Below are positions 27,679-49,235 of a DNA stretch of 58,973 bases, one piece after another. The stretch's first letter is position 1, and each line of letters starts with the position of its first letter. Under the pieces are notes generated by a model. It made no database searches and was not told where the DNA came from. It saw nothing but the letters and a program-made list of their open reading frames with translations. A program made the position numbers and the translations under genes. The stretch lies in IMG/VR virus record IMGVR_UViG_3300007735_000765, positions 1-58,973 of that record; one strand, 5' to 3'. This stretch comes from a virus. Its lineage: Duplodnaviria; Caudoviricetes.

Positions 27679-29100
27679 TTAGACCGCGTAGCGATCGACC
27701 ATTACAGTCTTTAACATGATTGCTTCTGGTGTGAAGTCATCCATGTCGTTGCTTAAAATGCCTTTGGCCACAGCTGGGCTGAAACCAGACACTAAAGCAG
27801 TGCCGCGCTTGTCGAACTTGACGGGGGTGTTGCCGTAAGCGGCGTTCAAGTTCCAGAATACAACCTTTGGAAGTTCATATCCTGCGGCTTGGTACTTACG
27901 TTCAATCATTTCGATTGCACTGTCATCGTGTTCAACACAAGTGTCAAACTGCATGTCGCTGAAGATAACCAATGTTTCAGGCATTTCTTCTTGCGGTACC
28001 TTGTTTTCCAAGGCAGTCTTAAGTACCAAATCAAATGCCTTGTGCAAATTGGTGTTAGCCACTTCGCCAGTACACATTTGATCAATCTTTTGATTGATAT
28101 TGCCCTTAAGGTTCACTAACTTAGGAGTGTTGCTAAAAGTCAAGAAAGTATCCTTGAATTTACCCTTGTTCTTGTCTGCAAAGTACAGGCCCAAAGACAC
28201 TGCAACTTCCAAACAAGTCAAGCCACTCTTGCTGTTGTAACCACCTGCGGCACAGGTCATTGACCCAGAGCTGTCAACCATTGGCAACACGCTGGCGTCA
28301 CCAATAAAGTTGGGCAATGCATCCCATTGTGCTTGGATAGCATCAAGCTCGGTGTTAGTCCAAGATTGACGGCCCCATGCACCAATACGACCCTTAAGGA
28401 CATCGTATGGGAACACTGCACCAGCGTTAATCTTAACGCCAGCTTCGCCCTTGACCAATTTAGTCACATATTCAGCGTAGGTTGTGCCATGACGACCAAA
28501 CGCTTTCTTGTAACGTGCATGGGCCACACTGGGCACATGGCTATAGTTGATGCTATCCCAGTTGTTGGCACACATCTGTGTTTCAACAACATTGGTCATA
28601 CCAACCAAGGTCTTGCGATATTGCTTTGGGGTCATACCAAAGAATTCACGGATTTCACGTGCAAGATTACCCTTGCGCGGAGTCCACTTTGCGGCAAGAC
28701 CGTTGCCTTCACGAAGATGGTTACCCAACAGGTTGAAGGCTTCCCACTTTAGCTTGGCGTCGGTAAAGACAAACAAGTCGTCAAAACGGCCTAGCTCAGG
28801 GATTTTATGGATCAGCAAAGCCGCATCAGCGGGGTTTGCCTTTTCCATGTATGCCAGGATGTCACGGAAAACTTGACGTTCACCGCTACCACCGCGGGCA
28901 TCTCGAGCCCACAATGCAATACGCAATGCCAAATCTCGATTTTCTACATAGGCCGCAGTAAATGCGGGCACAATGTCTTTACCACGGCTTGCGCCGATGT
29001 TGTAAAACAAGTCAACACAGGCACTGGCCGAGCCGACTCGAGCTTTCATACCGTTAGCGGTACGAGCTGATTGATTCTTAACTGCTTCTGCGAATTGCAT
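27679..29100 (-). CDS. DUF2828-family protein (helical domain plus vWA/MIDAS; Ro60/TROVE-like architecture inferred)
   Basis: RDARGGSGER, AKWTPR, VPSVA, MIDAS VDSSGSM, SDMQFD, VFWNL and VSGFS; AAGGAG RBS. Confidence 0.85.
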   Translation of the reverse strand: MQFAEAVKNQSARTANGMKARVGSASACVDLFYNIGASRGKDIVPAFTAAYVENRDLALRIALWARDARGGSGERQVFRDILAYMEKANPADAALLIHKIPELGRFDDLFVFTDAKLKWEAFNLLGNHLREGNGLAAKWTPRKGNLAREIREFFGMTPKQYRKTLVGMTNVVETQMCANNWDSINYSHVPSVAHARYKKAFGRHGTTYAEYVTKLVKGEAGVKINAGAVFPYDVLKGRIGAWGRQSWTNTELDAIQAQWDALPNFIGDASVLPMVDSSGSMTCAAGGYNSKSGLTCLEVAVSLGLYFADKNKGKFKDTFLTFSNTPKLVNLKGNINQKIDQMCTGEVANTNLHKAFDLVLKTALENKVPQEEMPETLVIFSDMQFDTCVEHDDSAIEMIERKYQAAGYELPKVVFWNLNAAYGNTPVKFDKRGTALVSGFSPAVAKGILSNDMDDFTPEAIMLKTVMVDRYAV

Positions 29101-36573: not shown

Positions 36574-37767
36574 CTACTCTTTAAGTAGCCCAAGTTCTAC
36601 AGTTTTTTCGATAACCTTACTCGATTCACAAAAGTGAACTACATTATTACTATCGATCCACAAAGGTATGGTAGTATTGTTTACGTTCCGTATTTTGTTT
36701 ACCGCCGTTGCCATACTTAAACTTTTAACTTTATTTTTAAAATTAAAGTAAAATTCATTGCCATCCACTTCGTATATTACACGTTTGTGTTGTAAATGAC
36801 TTTTTCCTGTGCTATAATCAGCAAATTTACTTGACTGATACTCTTGAAGAGCCCATTGTTGATATTCTTTAGTTTGAAACCACCCGAATGAGCCGTTAGT
36901 TAATTCTGTAATGTTTTTATATGGTGTGCAATATCGCACCGACTCATATGAATCAAAAGTCCAAAAATTAAAATCCCACCACCAGAAAAAATCCCCAACA
37001 GTGGCAATCTCTAATTTATATTCTTGTGCTGTGGATAATACCGCATTATAAATTAGTTCGCCGGCTCTAGTGTTTGTGTCGTCATTGGCCATCGACATAA
37101 ACTCCAGTATCTTGTCTTTATTATTAGCAAACGCAATATCTTTAGTACCGTACATCAGTAACCAACGCATACCAATTTCGCTGGCAGAGACTCTATCGCC
37201 ATTTTGGCCAGTTACTCTAAGCATATCATTATTGGGTTCGAATATTCGTTTCAATGCATGGTCAGTTGAGTTATAACGATTGGGAAAGTATTTTACAATT
37301 ATGTCCCTAGCAAAGTATGGATTTTCATCCACGCTATATTCGTTATAATAAATTTTAGTGTTGTTCCAAATATCTTTGTTACCATACTTAATCAAAATCG
37401 CAACAATAAAGGTACTGTCTAACCCCCCGGACCATTCGACTAGCAAACCGTTATGCGTTTGCAATCGATCCATCATTTGTGTATATCTATCATATGTTAC
37501 ATCGTCCCAGTCTAATGCTACCAAGGACTTTTGGGGTACGATATACTTGTCTAATAATCTGACAGGATGGAAAAATTCCGAACTAGTAGAAATCCTACTT
37601 TGGTGCATCCTATTGTCTAAATATGTTATTGTGTCTGATAAAAATGTTCTTCTTGAACGTTTGTATAATTGCAACCATTCATTTAGTTTTGAGTAATGCT
37701 GATATTGTTCGGGTGACATACTCATCACCACGGTAAGAGCATCAAACCAACTGATATTTTTTGTCAT
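36574..37767 (-). CDS. PP-loop (asparagine-synthetase-C-like) protein
   Basis: WSGGLDS and VTGQNGD; paralogous to 47257-48432. Confidence 0.65.
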   Translation of the reverse strand: MTKNISWFDALTVVMSMSPEQYQHYSKLNEWLQLYKRSRRTFLSDTITYLDNRMHQSRISTSSEFFHPVRLLDKYIVPQKSLVALDWDDVTYDRYTQMMDRLQTHNGLLVEWSGGLDSTFIVAILIKYGNKDIWNNTKIYYNEYSVDENPYFARDIIVKYFPNRYNSTDHALKRIFEPNNDMLRVTGQNGDRVSASEIGMRWLLMYGTKDIAFANNKDKILEFMSMANDDTNTRAGELIYNAVLSTAQEYKLEIATVGDFFWWWDFNFWTFDSYESVRYCTPYKNITELTNGSFGWFQTKEYQQWALQEYQSSKFADYSTGKSHLQHKRVIYEVDGNEFYFNFKNKVKSLSMATAVNKIRNVNNTTIPLWIDSNNVVHFCESSKVIEKTVELGLLKE

Positions 37768-38371: not shown

Positions 38372-38470
38372 TGGTGCCGCCAGCAGGACTCGAACCTGCA
38401 CACTCAGGCTTATCTGGCCTGTGCTTTGGCGAGGTATAAGCTCGCTTCTTTACCATTAAGCTATGGCGGC
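38372..38470 (-). tRNA. tRNA-Ile(UAU), 99 nt, with a second anticodon-like hairpin in the variable arm
   Basis: GCGAG-CTTATAC-CTCGC; variable arm CAGGC-CAGATAA-GCCTG; normal T arm and CCA. Confidence 0.8.
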
Positions 38471-38476
38471 AAAAAT

Positions 38477-38590
38477 AACAGGATACCTTCGTTTGACGAA
38501 TGCTCTACCTAATGAGCTAATCTTCCATGCGGAAAATGTTGGAATCGAACCAACTACCTATCGTTTGATAGAATTTGCTGTATGTATCCT
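38477..38590 (-). ncRNA. CAGCA-stem RNA copy 4: YrlA-type circularly permuted tRNA mimic
   Basis: AGGATAC/GTATCCT stem enclosing T arm GTTGG-TTCGATT-CCAAC, closed acceptor ATTTTCC-GCAT-GGAAGAT, then D arm GCTC-ATTAGGTA-GAGC. Confidence 0.8.
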
Positions 38591-42505: not shown

Positions 42506-42592
42506 TGGTGGGTGTTGATGGTAACGCTCCACGTGCCTTGACTTCACTACCTTCAGGAACGGATTTACAGTCCGCCGTAGTGGGCAACACCC
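42506..42592 (-). tRNA. tRNA-Tyr(GUA)-like, lacking a D arm
   Basis: Acceptor GGGTGTT/AACACCC-ACCA; GCGGA-CTGTAAA-TCCGT; T-loop AGCGTTA. Confidence 0.65.
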
Positions 42593-44884: not shown

Positions 44885-45630
44885 TTATCTAGGCCTTACA
44901 ATTTCGACTTGGCCAAAATACTCTAATATCTTTATCAAGGGCCACGCTGGATCAAATTCAAACCAGCGTCGGCTAAATTTAGCATCCCAAGGATAGTCAT
45001 GATGGTTAGCGCCGAATTCCTCACCGCCCCATAATGCACCTATAGGAAAAATATTTACACTATGATCGCCTACCATCTTAGCAGGTTCACAGCGATAACC
45101 ATAGTTATGTGAAAGAATGTTATGTAATCTTCCACTGATTCTAGTAAAAGTCATCCATATGACTTCAACAATCAATCCCTGCCAACCAAATAAGATCAAA
45201 GCAGGTATTAACCAAACTAGTCTACCATAATGCCTGTACTGCATTAAAAATGCATCTAGTCGATCGTCCATTAAAGGAACATCCCCGGCCAGCTGATCTC
45301 TAAGTTCGGCGGTCATGTATATGCTTTGCCTGGCGTACTGAATGTCTTGGGAAATAGTAGCTCACTAAAACTATAGACCCAAGGACTGTGTGGATCTTCT
45401 GCTGTGTCGGGATTGTTATGATGTTTTCTGTGTACTGCACTCCACGTTCTTGCAAACGCAGGCCAATAAATTCCCACAGACCAAAGCAACACTCTGCCAA
45501 CATTATCCACAAGAGGTGTACCATTCAACTGTCTGTGTGCATGGACTCTATGCAAAAACACAGAGCCCCAAGTAACAACAAACACATGAATTATAAAACC
45601 ATATAGTATGGCCCAGTACCAATCAAACAT
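44885..45630 (-). pseudogene. Fatty acid desaturase split into two frames (45313-45630 and 44885-45316)
   Basis: His boxes HRVHAH and HRKHH in the first ORF and ANHH in the second; frame change at about 45315. Confidence 0.7.
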
Positions 45631-45658: not shown

Positions 45659-45741
45659 TGGTGCGGACGGTGAGACTCGAACTCACACGCACGAGGCACT
45701 GGCTTCTAAGACCAGCGTGGCTACCATTACACCACGTCCGC
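45659..45741 (-). tRNA. tRNA-Leu(UAG)
   Basis: Loop CT-TAG-AA. Confidence 0.9.
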
Positions 45742-45747
45742 ATTATT

Positions 45748-45824
45748 TGGCTCCCCGAGCTGGGCTCGAACCAGCGACACCTTGATTAACAGTCAAGTGC
45801 TTCTACCAACTGAGCTATCAGGGA
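45748..45824 (-). tRNA. tRNA-Asn(GUU), second copy
   Basis: Loop CT-GTT-AA. Confidence 0.9.
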
Positions 45825-45842: not shown

Positions 45843-45871
45843 ATTATATATGCCTAAACATACACTGTCAA
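45843..45871 (-). promoter_or_regulatory. Sigma70 promoter
   Basis: TTGACA-17-TATAAT. Confidence 0.75.
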
Positions 45872-45874
45872 CAC

Positions 45875-46180
45875 CTTTAGGTTGTTGGCGTCGAAGCCAA
45901 CCCGGGCCCGTCAGGAGGAACACCGTATCTTCATCCATTGGGTAGTCTAAAATGTATTAGTTTCGGGAGATGCACCGTCCTGTCCAAACGACCCGATCAA
46001 GGGGCCCGGAAATTTTCATCTGATACATTTTAGAATACCCAGCATTACTGCTGGATATGACAGGGTCGATACCCTGACCAGGAGTCTTACTAGTGCGTTA
46101 TCTCCACACGTTCATGTATCCTGTCCGCCCATTTCACACATTTATACGCTGTGTTGCGGCTCTCGTTGCCTATTCACGTT
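45875..46180 (-). ncRNA. Candidate structured ncRNA block
   Basis: No ORF in track, GC-richer; about 21-bp imperfect stem 45940-45960/46020-46040; hairpins CAGGGT-ATCG-ACCCTG and CCAGCA-GTAA-TGCTGG. Confidence 0.5.
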
Positions 46181-46184
46181 GAAA

Positions 46185-46349
46185 TTATTTTCTAGAACTT
46201 TGAGCTAACTGTTTGAGCAGTTCAGATTGCTTACTAGCACGTTCAAACTTACTTAAAATCATCTTTCGATAATCCGTTTCGGTCATAGTGTACTCGGTAG
46301 TCCACTTAACTTCTCGCATTTTTCTAGCTATATCAACTTTCTTTTTCAT
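46185..46349 (-). CDS. Small basic protein (54 aa, not in ORF track), first gene after the attenuator
   Basis: AAGGA RBS; MKKKVDIARKMREVKWTTEYTMTETDYRK... Confidence 0.55.
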   Translation of the reverse strand: MKKKVDIARKMREVKWTTEYTMTETDYRKMILSKFERASKQSELLKQLAQSSRK

Positions 46350-46361
46350 AATTCCTTTTAA

Positions 46362-46397
46362 TAAACAAAAACCCCAGGGTTTTTAATCCTGGGGTCC
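46362..46397 (-). terminator. Intrinsic terminator, conditional (attenuator)
   Basis: GGACCCCAGG-ATTAAAAAC-CCTGGGGTT-TTTGTTTA. Confidence 0.8.
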
Positions 46398-46422
46398 TTA
46401 GAGTTTGTAGAGTTAGTTTAAG

Positions 46423-46566
46423 TTAACTGTACAGGCCTCCTGGACCCCGGGTACCCTCTGGTGTGCGATCATTACTAATCAATGTGATCGCAGACCAATA
46501 GGTGGGCATAAAGCCTCCCTGTTGGGCTATGCATTTCACTGATGATAAATGTTTCGCGTTTTTCAT
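46423..46566 (-). CDS. Candidate attenuator leader peptide (47 aa, all 20 amino acids)
   Basis: MKNAKHLSSVKCIAQQGGFMPTYWSAITLISNDRTPEGTRGPGGLYS*; its 3' end contains GGGGTCC, complementary to the terminator 5' arm. Confidence 0.65.
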   Translation of the reverse strand: MKNAKHLSSVKCIAQQGGFMPTYWSAITLISNDRTPEGTRGPGGLYS

Positions 46567-46576
46567 ATAAGTGTCT

Positions 46577-46605
46577 ATTGTAATTTATTTAGTCTTTGTT
46601 GTCAA
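46577..46605 (-). promoter_or_regulatory. Sigma70 promoter of the leader ORF, with an embedded CTAAATA
   Basis: TTGACA-17-TACAAT, 10 nt before the ATG. Confidence 0.75.
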
Positions 46606-46650
46606 AGACTTTTGGCTATCTTGAAAATATTTATACTTTCGTTTTAAACA

Positions 46651-46923
46651 TTAGTAATTTCTGGTCAGAGCCATGTGGCTCATCCATTGCAAAAACGCAT
46701 TATACACAGTTTCTGCTTCCTTGTCATCCTGTGGGACTTTGACTCCCCGTACCCAAAAACCATCCTTGCTGACTCTCAGCATTTCGGTGCTGTTGTCTGG
46801 GCCAGTGTACATCGAAATGGAGTTGGGTTCTTCATGCTCCCTAATCTTAAATACTGTGCCTGCGTTCACGGGCGGTAGCGCACCGTACAAACTGTGCAAT
46901 GGATTTGGTGTTATTACATTCAT
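46651..46923 (-). CDS. Hypothetical protein
   Basis: EMLRVSKDGFWVRGVKV; probable start MNVITP. Confidence 0.6.
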   Translation of the reverse strand: MNVITPNPLHSLYGALPPVNAGTVFKIREHEEPNSISMYTGPDNSTEMLRVSKDGFWVRGVKVPQDDKEAETVYNAFLQWMSHMALTRNY

Positions 46924-46978: not shown

Positions 46979-47260
46979 ATGAATTCAATTGATTTTGCAA
47001 AAACCAAACTAGTCGTTGATGTCTGTAATTACATTGCAGATAAAAGACAACATCTACTCGAGGATCTGGTAGCATACACCGAAGATCCAGTTCGTTATAA
47101 ACGTAGGCTAAGACTACTGCGACAGCTAGCACAATACGAAAGTTCTATAATACAGAAAATCGAAGAATTTAATGCCGACGGTAACAGTGACGTCTATTCT
47201 TTTGATACCATGGGCAATTTCAAAGACGAAATCGACTTAGTTGCATCAACAAACACATGA
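46979..47260 (+). CDS. Hypothetical protein
   Basis: TATAAATA 5 nt before ATG; ATGA-coupled to the PP-loop gene. Confidence 0.6.
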   Translation: MNSIDFAKTKLVVDVCNYIADKRQHLLEDLVAYTEDPVRYKRRLRLLRQLAQYESSIIQKIEEFNADGNSDVYSFDTMGNFKDEIDLVASTNT

Positions 47261-48432
47261 ACGACCGCCCACTATTAACACTGACTAATCCTCAGTATTT
47301 TAGAAAATTGATTAAGTATCATGGCTTTCATATTATAAATGATCGTCCGGGTCAGCATCAGTTTTTTATAGAATATTTTCAAGACCACAACTTTCTAGTA
47401 GATTTAAATCATTTCTTTTCTGAGAATCCACTAGGAGATCTAATGGATCGATCAGACACTTTGGTATTGCCTTTCTCTTATCAAAAGACCAAACCCTGGG
47501 TAGTTCCAGATTTAAACAAGGAAATTTTACTAGAAGATATCGTTGCTCGGCGTATAAAACAGTTAACCGATTTAGCCAACGGGCAAAAAATTAATCTGTT
47601 TTGGAGCGGGGGTATAGACAGCACTTTGGTTATCACAGCATTTTTAAAATACAGTGATGATCTAAGTCAATTACGTATAGTTTATAGTCCCATGTCAATG
47701 AAGGAAAACCCTAACTTTTTCCTACTAATGACCACTATCAAAAATCTGGAACTCTACGATTACAGTGGTGAAAATTATTTTCACGACGTAGAAGGTTTTT
47801 CAGTGACCGGCGATGTTTCAGATGAAATAACGGCTAGTTTTGACGAAACATTCTATGCAAAGCACTCCACAGAGTTACAGGATTCCTGGGAATCAGTATT
47901 TTCAAAACATGGGTTAACCGACGATCTAATAGAGTTTTCAAAACAATGGTTTGCACACAGTGGCATGGAAATCAAAACATTGGTTGAAGCAAGATGGTGG
48001 TTTTATATTTGTGCAAAATATCATTTATTTCAAGCCAAAGCGAATATTGCCGCAGACAGTGTTGCATTCTTTGATATGACAGAAATGGAACATTTTATTG
48101 CTGGCAATTTGAATAGACTTGTAACAGATCAAGGCTACAATACTTACAAACAATTTTTTAAAGATTTTATTTTTGAATACGATAAAAACAAAAACTATAA
48201 TCTTTATAAAACTAAAACAAATAGCCGACAAATTGTAGATTATAGACAAAAACGATTATATCTTCAGGACAATAGATACATTGCTATTCTCAGCGATGGT
48301 ACTCGCGTCGCGACACCCAATATGCCTTTGTTAAGCGAGTCTGAATATCGTGACAAATATGGAAACAGTCTGGACTATTTGTTTAACAAACGTGCTGTTG
48401 CCAAACAGCTATTCCAGAAAAAACGCCAATAA
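47257..48432 (+). CDS. PP-loop (asparagine-synthetase-C-like) protein
   Basis: FWSGGIDST and VTGDVSD. Confidence 0.65.
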   Translation: MNDRPLLTLTNPQYFRKLIKYHGFHIINDRPGQHQFFIEYFQDHNFLVDLNHFFSENPLGDLMDRSDTLVLPFSYQKTKPWVVPDLNKEILLEDIVARRIKQLTDLANGQKINLFWSGGIDSTLVITAFLKYSDDLSQLRIVYSPMSMKENPNFFLLMTTIKNLELYDYSGENYFHDVEGFSVTGDVSDEITASFDETFYAKHSTELQDSWESVFSKHGLTDDLIEFSKQWFAHSGMEIKTLVEARWWFYICAKYHLFQAKANIAADSVAFFDMTEMEHFIAGNLNRLVTDQGYNTYKQFFKDFIFEYDKNKNYNLYKTKTNSRQIVDYRQKRLYLQDNRYIAILSDGTRVATPNMPLLSESEYRDKYGNSLDYLFNKRAVAKQLFQKKRQ

Positions 48433-48440
48433 ATAATTTT

Positions 48441-49235
48441 ATGGGTACAGACTACAGTTTAATAAAATCAAAATTTCTTTGGTTCGTTGGCATGGGCGCA
48501 CTAGTTGCCAGTCTTGTATGGACTGTGTATACACAGGAATGGCTATACTGGTTTGTTAGCTATCTTTATTTCAGATGCATCAGTGTTATATCCAATAACA
48601 TTAGCCTACATCGATACTTTGCACATAAGAGCTTTAAAACTGGTCCAAAGAGACACCAACTATTAGCGTGGATCACACTGCTATCCGGAGTTGGTAGCCC
48701 TTTTATCTATGCCATACATCACAGACACCATCACAAGTACAGCGATCAACCACAAGACCTGCACAGTCCCCGGGAAAGTTTTTGGCGTAGCTTTTTAGGA
48801 ACGTGGGTTCTCAAAGACACAAAGTGGTGGATAGAAGAAAAGAAAGTTACACTGTTTCCTAGAGACTTAATTAGAGACCCTAGTGTAAAATTTATTACAG
48901 AACACTATCACAAGATGTGGCTAGCCCTGGTCTTAATGGCTTGGCTTGTTGGAGGTTTTAAATTCTGCTTGTTCTATATGCTAGCACCAGTAGGATGGAA
49001 TCTATTTCAAGGTGCAATGGTCAACTGCATAGACCATTTGAAATTGCCGGGAAGTTATAGAAACTACGATACCAACGACTATAGTTATAACAACAAAGTT
49101 CTAAATTGGTTCTTACTGGGCGAAGGCCTGCATAACAATCATCACTATGATCAAGCCAATTATAGACAAGCACATAAACCCGACGAATATGATCCTGCAG
49201 GTTGGATTATAGAAAAATTCTTTAAAGTTAATTGA
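48441..49235 (+). CDS. Delta-9-type fatty acid desaturase
   Basis: HRYFAH, HRHHH and GEGLHNNHH. Confidence 0.9.
   Translation: MGTDYSLIKSKFLWFVGMGALVASLVWTVYTQEWLYWFVSYLYFRCISVISNNISLHRYFAHKSFKTGPKRHQLLAWITLLSGVGSPFIYAIHHRHHHKYSDQPQDLHSPRESFWRSFLGTWVLKDTKWWIEEKKVTLFPRDLIRDPSVKFITEHYHKMWLALVLMAWLVGGFKFCLFYMLAPVGWNLFQGAMVNCIDHLKLPGSYRNYDTNDYSYNNKVLNWFLLGEGLHNNHHYDQANYRQAHKPDEYDPAGWIIEKFFKVN

What the first reader, a model, noticed from the sequence alone, without database searches (positions are those of the whole stretch)
46362..46605. Leader peptide containing all 20 amino acids coupled to an antiterminator/terminator at the head of the tRNA array
Seen: promoter TTGACA-17-TACAAT, then after 10 nt an SD-less 47-codon ORF, MKNAKHLSSVKCIAQQGGFMPTYWSAITLISNDRTPEGTRGPGGLYS*. 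All 20 amino acids occur in the first 37 codons, and 35 different codons are used by hand count, including all three Ile codons. It contains a strong hairpin (TGCGATCA...TGATCGCA, pause-like). Codons 39-42 (CCCGGGGTCC) can pair with GGACCCCAGG, the 5' arm of the U-tailed terminator that starts 25 nt after the stop, so the two structures are mutually exclusive. Established: his/trp-type attenuators use this logic, with leaders enriched for one amino acid. Inference: a ribosome reaching the stop masks the antiterminator and transcription ends. A stall at any codon (tRNA cleavage or starvation) allows read-through into a basic 54-aa gene, an ncRNA block and a tRNA set covering all 20 amino acids, making this a general translation-stress sensor. 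Caveat: internal promoters (45843, 44771, 43224, 36522) mean it may boost rather than gate the array.
Basis: partly seen in the sequence, partly recalled or inferred. Interest (0 to 1): 0.9.

Follow-up and report, generated by a model that had tools for sequence, protein, structure and literature searches.

The report
Twenty-amino-acid leader switch before phage tRNAs
At the head of its tRNA genes this uncultured freshwater giant phage, like well over a hundred relatives, carries a tiny gene that evolution keeps stocked with all 20 amino acids and that ends inside a stop/go RNA switch, so transcription probably runs on whenever ribosomes decode any codon too slowly.

Summary
It comprises a promoter, a 47-codon ORF with all 20 amino acids in its first 37 codons, an antiterminator and a terminator.

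The element is conserved. I found 203 loci in viral and metagenome contigs, giving 145 distinct leader peptides. Of these, 117 hold all 20 amino acids and 21 hold 19. About 2.5% is expected by chance, and the other five reading frames of the same DNA give 0-4 of 144.

Cys, His and Trp usually occur exactly once, and Cys and His sit at shifting positions. The antiterminator and terminator helices covary three ways. The stop codon lies inside the antiterminator. A co-oriented tRNA follows within 1.5 kb in 161 of 165 judged loci.

Best reading: a ribosome-mediated transcription attenuator that reads on when decoding of any amino acid lags. In this window its first cargo is a conserved 54-aa gene. 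A consensus promoter further downstream means it boosts rather than gates the tRNAs here.

Nothing like it turned up in four literature searches. The closest known system is the mycobacterial whiB7 uORF attenuator. This scan had already found the same element in at least seven other genomes.

The parts
46577..46605 (-). Sigma-70-type promoter, TTGACA-17-TACAAT
   Evidence: 11/12 match. It is conserved in the close relatives aligned. A site matching at least 10/12 lies within 120 nt upstream of the ATG in 138 of 147 distinct leaders.
46569..46569 (-). Probable transcript 5' end, 3 nt before the ATG (near-leaderless mRNA)
   Evidence: table 7 and table 8. One contig of RNA library X12 covers 46487-46569 and then continues into 24 letters that I recognise, from recall, as Illumina adapter. 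The position is 7 nt after the -10 hexamer. This is a single contig and a weak hint.
46423..46566 (-). 47-codon leader ORF with all 20 amino acids (stop TAA at 46425-46423)
46455..46502 (-). Hairpin P1 inside the ORF (codons 22-37), specific to some lineages
   Evidence: -20.0 kcal/mol here. The same fold appears in 14 of 23 relatives.
46442..46451 (-). Segment 2, the 5' strand of the antiterminator basal helix (core GGGGUCC at 46448-46442)
46388..46451 (-). Antiterminator: a three-part hairpin. The basal helix is seg2:seg3, the middle helix is GGAG:CUCU, and the apical helix holds the stop codon.
   Evidence: -27.8 kcal/mol here and -19.9 to -32.6 in 23 relatives. Apical helices differ in sequence between lineages.
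46388..46397 (-). Segment 3 (GGACCCCAGG), shared by the antiterminator and the terminator 5' arm
   Evidence: three-way covariation.
46360..46395 (-). Intrinsic terminator: ACCCCAGG, a 9-nt loop, CCUGGGGU, then UUUUUGUUUAUU
   Evidence: All 8 stem positions pair in 112-139 of 139 distinct sequences, with C-G/U-A and A-U/G-C swaps.
46185..46349 (-). First cargo: a conserved basic 54-aa gene with SD AAAGGAA
   Evidence: A homologous ~50-60-aa ORF (..HTLTxEQxxKLIxDKFERAR..) starts within 80 nt of the terminator in 165 of 181 loci. No Pfam, PHROG or Atlas name was found.
45872..46184 (-). ORF-poor structured block between the 54-aa gene and the next promoter
   Evidence: sequence. RNA-library contigs reach into it as far as 46073. 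Not analysed further.
45843..45871 (-). Internal consensus promoter TTGACA-17-TATAAT just before the first tRNA
   Evidence: 12/12. A site matching at least 11/12 in this gap exists in only 36 of 128 distinct relatives.
45659..45824 (-). First tRNAs of the array (Asn-GUU, Leu-UAG). The array continues to 29666.

Best explanation
This is a ribosome-mediated transcription attenuator.

How it works (steps 2-4 are inferred):
1. A sigma-70-type promoter starts a nearly leaderless mRNA whose 47-codon ORF runs into the 5' strand of a long antiterminator hairpin. The stop codon lies near the apex of that hairpin.
2. If a ribosome follows RNA polymerase closely, it unwinds and covers that strand while the shared segment GGACCCC emerges.
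3. That segment then pairs downstream to form the terminator. Transcription ends about 56 nt after the stop codon.
4. If the ribosome is absent or held up anywhere in roughly the first 37-38 codons, the more stable antiterminator forms first. Polymerase then reads on into a conserved ~55-aa gene and towards the tRNA array.

Because selection keeps every amino acid in the leader, usually one copy each of Cys, His and Trp, a shortage of any charged tRNA should open the switch. Starvation, host shut-off or tRNA-cutting defences could cause such a shortage.

Shown here: the anatomy, its conservation, the covariation, a coding constraint on the ORF, selection for a complete amino-acid set, and the link to tRNA arrays.

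Inferred: translation of the ORF, the direction of the switch, and the physiological trigger.
For: Anatomy in the window.

The family:
- A pattern based on the ORF found 30 loci in viral contigs and 72 in metagenome contigs.
- Pooled, 203 of 210 sequences examined (the window plus 209 fetched loci) carry the switch. In 201 of them an ATG-ORF ends inside the antiterminator.

Complete amino-acid set:
- Of 145 distinct peptides (median 47 aa), 117 hold all 20 residues, 21 hold 19, 4 hold 18, 2 hold 17, and 1 is a start-call artefact.
- Among the 84 peptides found only by the ORF-independent pattern, 65 hold 20 and 13 hold 19.
- Controls: 8 of 314 other small ORFs, and 2.8% of 47-aa gene windows. 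The five other frames of the same spans give 0-4 of 144.
- A null that keeps each alignment column's phylogenetic pattern and the window's own peptide gave a mean of 15 +/- 8 of 59 and a maximum of 44 in 1,500 runs. The observed value is 51.
- Exactly one Cys occurs in 118 of 144 peptides, one His in 124 and one Trp in 130. Cys and His sit at many different positions.

Coding constraint: the 9 length classes between two ORF anchors all fall in one residue class mod 3 across 103 loci, although the pattern allowed 31 lengths.

Structure:
- The antiterminator folds at -20 to -33 kcal/mol and the terminator at -11 to -15 in 23 relatives.
- The basal-helix pair x-1:w1 is G-C in 64, A-U in 66, G.U in 8 and mismatched in 1 of 139 distinct sequences. 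The same terminator base also covaries with its 3' partner.
- Permuting segment 2 among sequences reached the observed pairing in 0 of 2,000 runs.

Geometry: the stop codon lies 18-38 nt before segment 3 and 48-63 nt before the end of the U run.

Context:
- A co-oriented tRNA lies within 1.5 kb downstream in 161 of 165 judged loci. In 138 of the 165 there is none within 1.5 kb upstream.
- Only 36 of 128 distinct gaps hold a promoter matching at least 11/12 before the first tRNA.

RNA: contigs from RNA libraries of two studies bridge the terminator, X11 at 46073-46453 and X12 at 46166-46516.

Precedent: in the whiB7 uORF attenuator, removing Trp or His codons from the uORF removed the response to that starvation (PMC10274678, section 7 read).
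Against: - No call shows translation or stalling-dependent read-through.
- The window's ORF has no SD and only about 3 nt of 5' UTR. An SD-like motif precedes only 20 of 147 distinct leaders.
- The set is often completed late. With codons at least 15 nt before segment 2, only 15 of 147 are complete. At 8 nt or more it is 94 of 147. In 12 of 120 the last residue lies inside or after segment 2, where a stall should favour termination.
- Deep lineages are less complete. Of 14 clusters at 40% identity, 5 representatives have 20 residues, 5 have 19, 2 have 18 and 2 have 17.
- A conserved core (W in 142 of 144 peptides, DRTPE in 105 of 144) is not explained by a pure sensor. It hints at a role for the peptide itself.
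- Hairpin P1 is not family-wide, and I found no anti-antiterminator.
- In this window a 12/12 promoter lies before the first tRNA.
- Contigs cannot give termination efficiency.
Confidence: 0.7

Rival explanations
1. The same attenuator anatomy, but it reports only whether ribosomes keep pace at all (ribosome supply, host shut-off, translation inhibitors). It would not report shortage of individual charged tRNAs, and the full amino-acid set would serve some other end.
For: The default fold is the antiterminator, so any loss of translation opens the switch. Many completing codons lie close to segment 2.
Against: It leaves unexplained why 117 of 145 distinct peptides keep all 20 residues, why Cys, His and Trp occur once each, and why those single copies move position.
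Confidence: 0.15
2. A nascent-peptide sensor. The conserved W...DRTPE core would arrest or slow the ribosome in the exit tunnel just before segment 2, as TnaC or SecM do. This might happen in response to a ligand or factor, and that arrest would set the switch.
For: W is present in 142 of 144 peptides and DRTPE in 105 of 144. Within that motif the variable bases fall at third codon positions (CGY, CCN, GAR). The motif ends 9-11 nt before segment 2.
Against: The first two searches required this motif, so part of its conservation is by ascertainment. Among the 84 peptides found without it, 39 lack DRTPE yet most are still complete. The spacing between W and the motif varies over 9 length classes. 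I compared it with no known arrest motif.
Confidence: 0.1
3. An ordinary small protein gene with its own terminator. The long hairpin would only stabilise the 3' end, and the amino-acid completeness would be a by-product.
For: The unit has its own promoter, ORF and terminator, and a partly conserved peptide core.
Against: A hairpin that sequesters the terminator's 5' arm and is more stable than the terminator would defeat that terminator. The tails are read in different frames while the RNA pairing is kept. Single-copy residues relocate. There is no family match.
Confidence: 0.08
4. A non-coding structured RNA (an sRNA or processing signal) in which the ORF is incidental.
For: The fold is strong, z = -5.67. 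There is no SD in the window.
Against: All length changes are in frame. The ATG and the stop position inside the hairpin are conserved in 201 of 203 loci. Completeness is specific to one frame. There is no Rfam match at E <= 1.
Confidence: 0.03

Closest known systems
whiB7 (wblC) uORF transcription attenuator of mycobacteria (PMC10274678; abstract and section 7 read)
   Same: A uORF lies ahead of an antiterminator/terminator pair. Stalling in the uORF gives read-through. The paper reports that lack of many amino acids activates it (18 of 20 in M. smegmatis) and that which amino acids are sensed depends on which are in the uORF. The M. smegmatis uORF has every residue but Cys.
   Different: That uORF is Ala-enriched, varies in content between species, and controls a transcription factor of a bacterium. 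In the phage leaders Ala is 6.0% of residues, the full set is kept across 117 of 145 distinct peptides, the rare residues are single-copy, and the cargo is a small conserved phage gene plus a tRNA array.
Amino-acid biosynthetic attenuators of enterobacteria (trp, his, leu, thr, ilv, pheA leaders; recalled, apart from search listings)
   Same: A leader ORF, a terminator, and an antiterminator that shares a strand with it. Ribosome position decides the outcome. As I recall the trp leader, the stop-to-termination distance is of the same order.
   Different: Those leaders carry runs of one to three cognate amino acids and a 1:2 hairpin that blocks the antiterminator when nothing is translated. This leader has no runs and no anti-antiterminator that I could find, and all 20 residues are present.
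Antibiotic-sensing leader-peptide attenuators (e.g. bmrCD, mef/mel, msrD; search listings only)
   Same: General translation trouble in a short ORF switches a terminator off.
   Different: They respond to drug-bound ribosomes at particular peptide motifs, and no complete amino-acid set is reported for them. I did not read these papers.
T-box riboswitches (recalled)
   Same: An antiterminator/terminator choice that reports tRNA charging.
   Different: T-boxes bind one uncharged tRNA directly and need no ORF. No T-box or any other Rfam family matched the element at E <= 1.

Membership tests
Ribosome-mediated transcription attenuator | Intrinsic terminator between the promoter and the regulated genes | tested here: met
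   An 8-bp GC-rich stem followed by a U run. The stem pairs are kept, with swaps, in 139 distinct sequences.
Ribosome-mediated transcription attenuator | Antiterminator that shares a strand with the terminator, so the two are mutually exclusive | tested here: met
   GGACCCC pairs either with GGGGUCC or with the 3' arm. Three-way covariation: G/C/G in 64, A/U/A in 46, A/U/G in 20 of 139. Permutation reached the observed pairing in 0 of 2,000 runs.
Ribosome-mediated transcription attenuator | Leader ORF placed so that a translating ribosome covers the antiterminator's 5' strand | tested here: met
   The stop codon lies 15-34 nt after the start of segment 2, inside the hairpin, in 201 of 203 loci.
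Ribosome-mediated transcription attenuator | The leader ORF is translated | not testable with these tools
   Only indirect evidence exists: in-frame length classes and frame-specific completeness. There is no SD in the window. An SD-like motif precedes 20 of 147 leaders.
Ribosome-mediated transcription attenuator | Read-through rises when the ribosome stalls in the leader | not testable with these tools
   RNA-library contigs bridge the terminator, but they give no levels or conditions.
trp/his-type amino-acid attenuator | Run of codons for the cognate amino acid(s) | tested here: not met
   Composition is flat. Ser is 12.5% and all other residues are 2.2-7%. No runs appear in the peptides listed.
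trp/his-type amino-acid attenuator | A 1:2 pause / anti-antiterminator hairpin | tested here: inconclusive
   Hairpin P1 forms in 14 of 23 relatives. It does not involve segment 2.
whiB7-type uORF attenuator | Ala-enriched uORF ahead of a WhiB-family regulator | tested here: not met
   Ala is 6.0%. The downstream gene has no Pfam match.
T-box riboswitch | Match to the T-box covariance model (specifier and T-box sequence) | tested here: not met
   No Rfam family matched within 46362-46605 at E <= 1.

The most novel reading that the evidence does not exclude
A universal decoding sensor. Giant freshwater phages would keep one codon for every amino acid in a test ORF so that loss of any single charged tRNA switches on a rescue module made of a small conserved protein and the phage's own tRNAs. 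Host anticodon nucleases, starvation or the phage's own host shut-off could cause that loss. On this reading it is a counter-defence circuit, and the first natural attenuator selected for completeness rather than for one amino acid.
Probability: 0.5. Interest if true: 0.9.

Novelty: new variant of a known kind. Interest (0 to 1): 0.85.

Why it matters
Known attenuators watch one or a few amino acids. In this case the sequence record itself shows selection for a leader that samples all 20, wired to the genes that supply tRNAs.

If the mechanism holds, three things follow:
- It explains how large phages time their tRNA expression.
- It links phage tRNA arrays to tRNA-targeting host defences.
- It offers a compact, natural part of about 200 nt that reports the decoding state of a cell for every amino acid at once.

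The prediction is directly testable with standard reporter or cell-free assays, following the design already used for whiB7.

Tried and rejected
Searches that found nothing:
- Cultured-phage records: no match by megablast or blastn with the window's element, tblastn with the neighbouring 391-aa protein, blastn with a second-lineage element, or tblastn with a downstream small protein. No cultured model is therefore in hand.
- The search for related loci found no relatives with the 54-aa protein or the 391-aa protein.
- Relatives found through the upstream 118-aa gene gave 7 loci. Three of these carry the element. L004 and L006-L008 do not carry it next to that gene.
- Rfam gave nothing in the element.
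- PHROGs and Pfam gave nothing for the leader or the 54-aa protein. The best Atlas score was 0.78, which is uninformative.

Method problems:
- A pattern that relaxed synonymous positions returned the same 30 viral loci. TAT, AAT, GAT and ACA in the core are therefore fixed even at third positions. I did not follow up the idea that NAU codons are chosen on purpose.
- MAFFT mis-registers 7-bp and 8-bp terminators, so RNAalifold on A3 returned only the terminator. A regex split by stem length failed.
- I used anchored counts instead. The first attempt crashed. The second used a wrong anchor and its numbers are void. One search is the valid one.
- I did not build a covariance model or run the count of structure pairs.

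Ideas rejected:
- P1 as a family-wide pause hairpin.
- A match between residues missing from a leader and tRNAs missing from that phage. L012 lacks Cys in its leader and L036 lacks Val, yet both arrays encode those tRNAs.

RNA libraries: the four runs laid gave no cover at 46588-46800 or at 45959-46069. Short high-depth pieces on 46363-46410 come from relatives.

Not attempted: structure prediction, complex prediction and fold search.

Supplementary files of PMC10274678 were not opened. Its uORF table may bear on how complete other whiB7 uORFs are.
Full report
WHAT IS THERE. The window is a 58,973-bp IMG/VR virus record that CheckV rates at 17% complete. It is therefore a fragment of a giant phage, and its relatives reach 338-354 kb. 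The finding lies on the minus strand.

I read the following from the sequence:
- -35 hexamer TTGACA at 46605-46600, a 17-nt spacer, and -10 hexamer TACAAT at 46582-46577;
- ten nt, then ATG at 46566;
- a 47-codon ORF ending with TAA at 46425-46423;
- 25 nt, then GGACCCCAGG at 46397-46388;
- the terminator ACCCCAGG / loop of 9 / CCTGGGGT, followed by a U run to about 46360;
- a 54-aa gene with a good SD at 46349-46185.

The leader RNA folds far better than shuffles, at -72.2 kcal/mol with z = -5.67. No Rfam family matches it at E <= 1.

IS IT MORE THAN CHANCE IN ONE SEQUENCE? Only mildly. A 47-residue stretch with all 20 amino acids occurs in 2.8% of windows of this phage's long ORFs. A 37-residue stretch does so in 0.43% (54 of 12,583). 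Among other small ATG-ORFs in six frames the figure is 8 of 314. 35 or more distinct codons occur in 1.7% of 47-codon windows. The case rests on relatives.

RELATIVES. Cultured-phage records gave nothing. Through the upstream 118-aa gene I reached 7 viral contigs, and 3 of them hold the element at about 76% identity.

I then ran three pattern searches:
- A pattern from two conserved ORF stretches found 30 viral loci and 72 metagenome loci.
- Because that pattern fixes nine residues of the peptide, I also searched with a pattern taken only from the antiterminator and terminator.
- The same pattern found one contig binned with a Polynucleobacter MAG. Its leader also has all 20 residues.

Pooled, 203 of 210 sequences examined (the window plus 209 fetched loci) match a loose regular expression for the switch.

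THE ORF IS UNDER CODING CONSTRAINT.
- In 201 of 203 loci an ATG-ORF ends inside the antiterminator. The other two are cut at the 5' end.
- Between the two ORF anchors the pattern allowed 31 lengths. The 103 loci use 9 lengths, all in the same class mod 3.
- After the conserved core the tails are read in different frames in different lineages, while the nucleotides of segment 2 are kept. That part is therefore constrained as RNA.

THE FULL AMINO-ACID SET IS SELECTED.
- Of 145 distinct peptides (median 47 aa, taking the shorter start where the first ATG gave more than 56 aa), 117 have 20 residues, 21 have 19, 4 have 18 and 2 have 17. One is a start-call artefact.
- Among the 84 peptides found only by the ORF-independent pattern, 65 have 20 and 13 have 19. 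Only 14 of these 84 carry NDRTPE.
- The other two forward frames and the three reverse frames of the same spans, with stops skipped, give 0-4 of 144. Their mean is 16.6-17.6 distinct residues, against 19.76 in the ORF frame.
- I ran a null that keeps the window's peptide and the pattern of identity among sequences in every alignment column, but redraws which residues are involved. It gave 15 +/- 8 complete peptides of 59, with a maximum of 44 in 1,500 runs. The observed value is 51. The same test on the first 23 sequences gave P of 0.0005-0.002.
- The rare residues are close to single-copy. There is exactly one Cys in 118 of 144 peptides, one His in 124 and one Trp in 130.
- Cys and His stand at many different places along the peptides.
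- Composition is flat, with Ser at 12.5% and all other residues at 2.2-7%. Codon diversity is raised: 0.756 distinct codons per codon against 0.620 in genes.

Results against this reading:
- Clustering at 40% identity leaves 14 clusters whose representatives have 20 (5), 19 (5), 18 (2) and 17 (2) residues. The deepest branches are therefore near-complete rather than complete.
- Sequences are related, and my nulls are approximations.

THE SWITCH. In each of 23 relatives the region from the end of the core to the terminator's 5' arm folds as one long hairpin of three helices:
- a basal helix, GGGGUCC:GGACCCC and its variants;
- a middle helix, GGAG:CUCC;
- an apical helix whose sequence differs wholly between lineages and which holds the stop codon.

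This hairpin folds at -19.9 to -32.6 kcal/mol. The terminator folds at -11.2 to -14.6 kcal/mol.

Anchored counts on 139 distinct sequences give the following:
- The base after ACCC in the shared strand is C or U.
- Its partner in segment 2 is G or A to match: G-C 64, A-U 66, G.U 8, A.C 1.
- Its partner in the terminator's 3' arm also matches: C-G 65, U-A 53, U.G 21.
- A second basal pair swaps C-G (129) for U-A (5), with 5 mismatches.
- Permuting segment 2 among sequences reached the observed pairing in 0 of 2,000 runs.

RNAalifold on a MAFFT alignment found only the terminator, because MAFFT mis-registers 7-bp and 8-bp stems. I report the anchored counts instead. A first anchoring was wrong and is void.

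GEOMETRY.
- The ATG lies 99-137 nt before segment 2, and the stop lies 15-34 nt after its start.
- The stop lies 18-38 nt before GGACCC and 48-63 nt before the end of the U run.
- A ribosome at or near the stop therefore sits on the middle and apical helices. That leaves the basal pairing alone to compete with a local terminator hairpin.
- Without a ribosome the full antiterminator is about twice as stable as the terminator. This step is inference from energies, not a measurement.

WHICH CODONS COULD BE SENSED.
- The set is complete using only codons whose first base is at least 8 nt before segment 2 in 94 of 147 distinct coding sequences. At 15 nt or more it is 15 of 147.
- The completing residue is Glu in 74 of 120. 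That Glu lies 9-11 nt before segment 2.
- In 12 of 120 the completing residue lies inside or after segment 2.
- Whether a ribosome stalled with that Glu codon in its A site still leaves segment 2 free depends on a spacing rule that I recall from frameshift signals. I did not test it.

CONTEXT.
- A co-oriented tRNA lies within 1.5 kb after the terminator in 161 of 165 loci that could be judged, at a median of 444 nt. 38 loci were too short to judge. 138 of the 165 have no tRNA within 1.5 kb upstream. 98.7% of 2,286 downstream tRNAs are co-oriented.
- Directly after the terminator, 165 of 181 loci have an ORF of 30 aa or more. Most belong to one ~50-60-aa family (..HTLTxEQxxKLIxDKFERAR..) with an AAGGAG-type SD. 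The window's 54-aa gene is a member. It has no name in Pfam, PHROGs or the Atlas.
- A promoter-like site matching at least 11/12 between the terminator and the first tRNA exists in 36 of 128 distinct gaps. The window has a 12/12 site at 45871-45843. In this phage the switch therefore gates the 54-aa gene and the ORF-poor block behind it, and can only add to tRNA transcription. In most relatives it may gate the first tRNAs as well.

RNA EVIDENCE.
- Twenty listed runs from 13 studies hold parts of the stretch. Six hold at least half of its sampled words, and four are RNA libraries. The run labels are mostly freshwater or other environmental metagenomes.
- In contigs of two RNA libraries from two studies, single contigs run across the terminator: X11 at 46073-46453 and X12 at 46166-46516.
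- One X12 contig ends at 46569 and continues into what I recognise, from recall, as adapter sequence. That would put the 5' end 7 nt after the -10 hexamer and 3 nt before the ATG.
- This agrees with 34 of 147 leaders whose -10 hexamer ends 6-11 nt before the ATG.
- Contigs cannot give strand, level or termination efficiency, and DNA carry-over is not excluded.

WHAT IT IS LIKE. It works like a ribosome-mediated attenuator. Three of the anatomical membership features were tested and met: the terminator, the mutually exclusive antiterminator, and the ORF over the antiterminator's 5' strand. Translation and response could not be tested.

It is not a trp/his-type member, because it has no codon runs and P1 forms in only 14 of 23 relatives. 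It is not a T-box.

The nearest published system I could read is the whiB7 uORF attenuator. There, starvation for many amino acids induces read-through, and deleting the Trp or His codons of the uORF removes the matching response (PMC10274678, abstract and section 7). That uORF is Ala-enriched and varies in content. The phage leader has 6.0% Ala and is kept complete.

Four full-text searches found no paper describing a complete-set leader or an attenuator before phage tRNA arrays. These covered leader peptide, all 20 or all twenty amino acids, attenuation, tRNA array, jumbo phage, antiterminator and ribosome stalling. I saw listings and abstracts only, and subscription journals are not covered.

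EARLIER NOTES OF THIS SCAN. A look-up by sequence showed that follow-up agents had reported the same kind of element in at least seven other genomes, with the same reading and the same whiB7 comparison. I took the paper lead from those notes and checked it myself. All counts here are from my own calls. Notes on this same window describe odd tRNAs and an RNA-repair gene set. I checked only the tRNA calls.

VERDICT.
- The mechanism is inferred, with confidence 0.7.
- It is a new variant of a known kind of regulator.
- It is of high interest because the selection for completeness is visible in the sequences and the prediction is simple to test.

Noticed in passing
46185-46349 (-), and the loci listed: A conserved ~50-60-aa helical-looking protein family (..HTLTxEQxxKLIxDKFERAR..) always sits directly behind the terminator with a strong SD. 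It is the switch's first cargo. It has no name in Pfam, PHROGs or the Atlas.
   Followed up: partly
46431-46440 (-), and the same place in relatives: The 5' strand of the antiterminator's middle helix is an SD-like GGAGG inside the ORF in most lineages. It might slow ribosomes on the antiterminator or serve only as a pairing strand.
   Followed up: no
45872-46184 (-): An ORF-poor block of about 310 nt with GC-rich hairpins lies between the 54-aa gene and the next promoter. Contigs from RNA libraries reach 46073-46166 and stop there.
   Followed up: no
47257-48432 (+) and 36574-37767 (-): Two ~390-aa proteins give weak PHROG hits to QueC-like enzymes (E 0.002 and 0.00015). The first carries an SGGxDS-type PP-loop motif by eye. 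They are possible tRNA-modifying enzymes beside the tRNA array.
   Followed up: no
44885-45630 (-) and 48441-49235 (+): Two adjacent ORFs (105 and 143 aa) match the N- and C-terminal parts of the same PHROG (35201, histidine-box membrane protein). An intact 264-aa copy lies upstream. The copy inside the tRNA array looks split.
   Followed up: no
42506-42592 (-): The only Tyr tRNA candidate (anticodon loop CUGUAAA) lacks a D arm. Neither ARAGORN nor Rfam finds it. The Ile-UAU tRNA at 38372-38470 has a long extra arm.
   Followed up: partly
38477-38590 (-) and 27679-29100 (-): A sub-threshold Rfam match to YrlA (Y RNA-like, 34.8 bits against a gathering score of 69) lies 9 kb from a 473-aa protein that matches PHROG 850 'RNA-binding protein' at E 1.9e-138.
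   Followed up: no
L218:5647-5955 (+): One 6.2-kb contig binned with a Polynucleobacter MAG carries a complete leader (48 aa, all 20 residues) and the switch. This is a weak host lead, and the contig may be phage DNA mis-binned.
   Followed up: partly
L009, L013, L018, L023, L029, L032 (alignment): One lineage has a 5' UTR of about 55 nt with its own conserved hairpin (GUAGCAAUUCCGCUAC) in place of the near-leaderless start.
   Followed up: no
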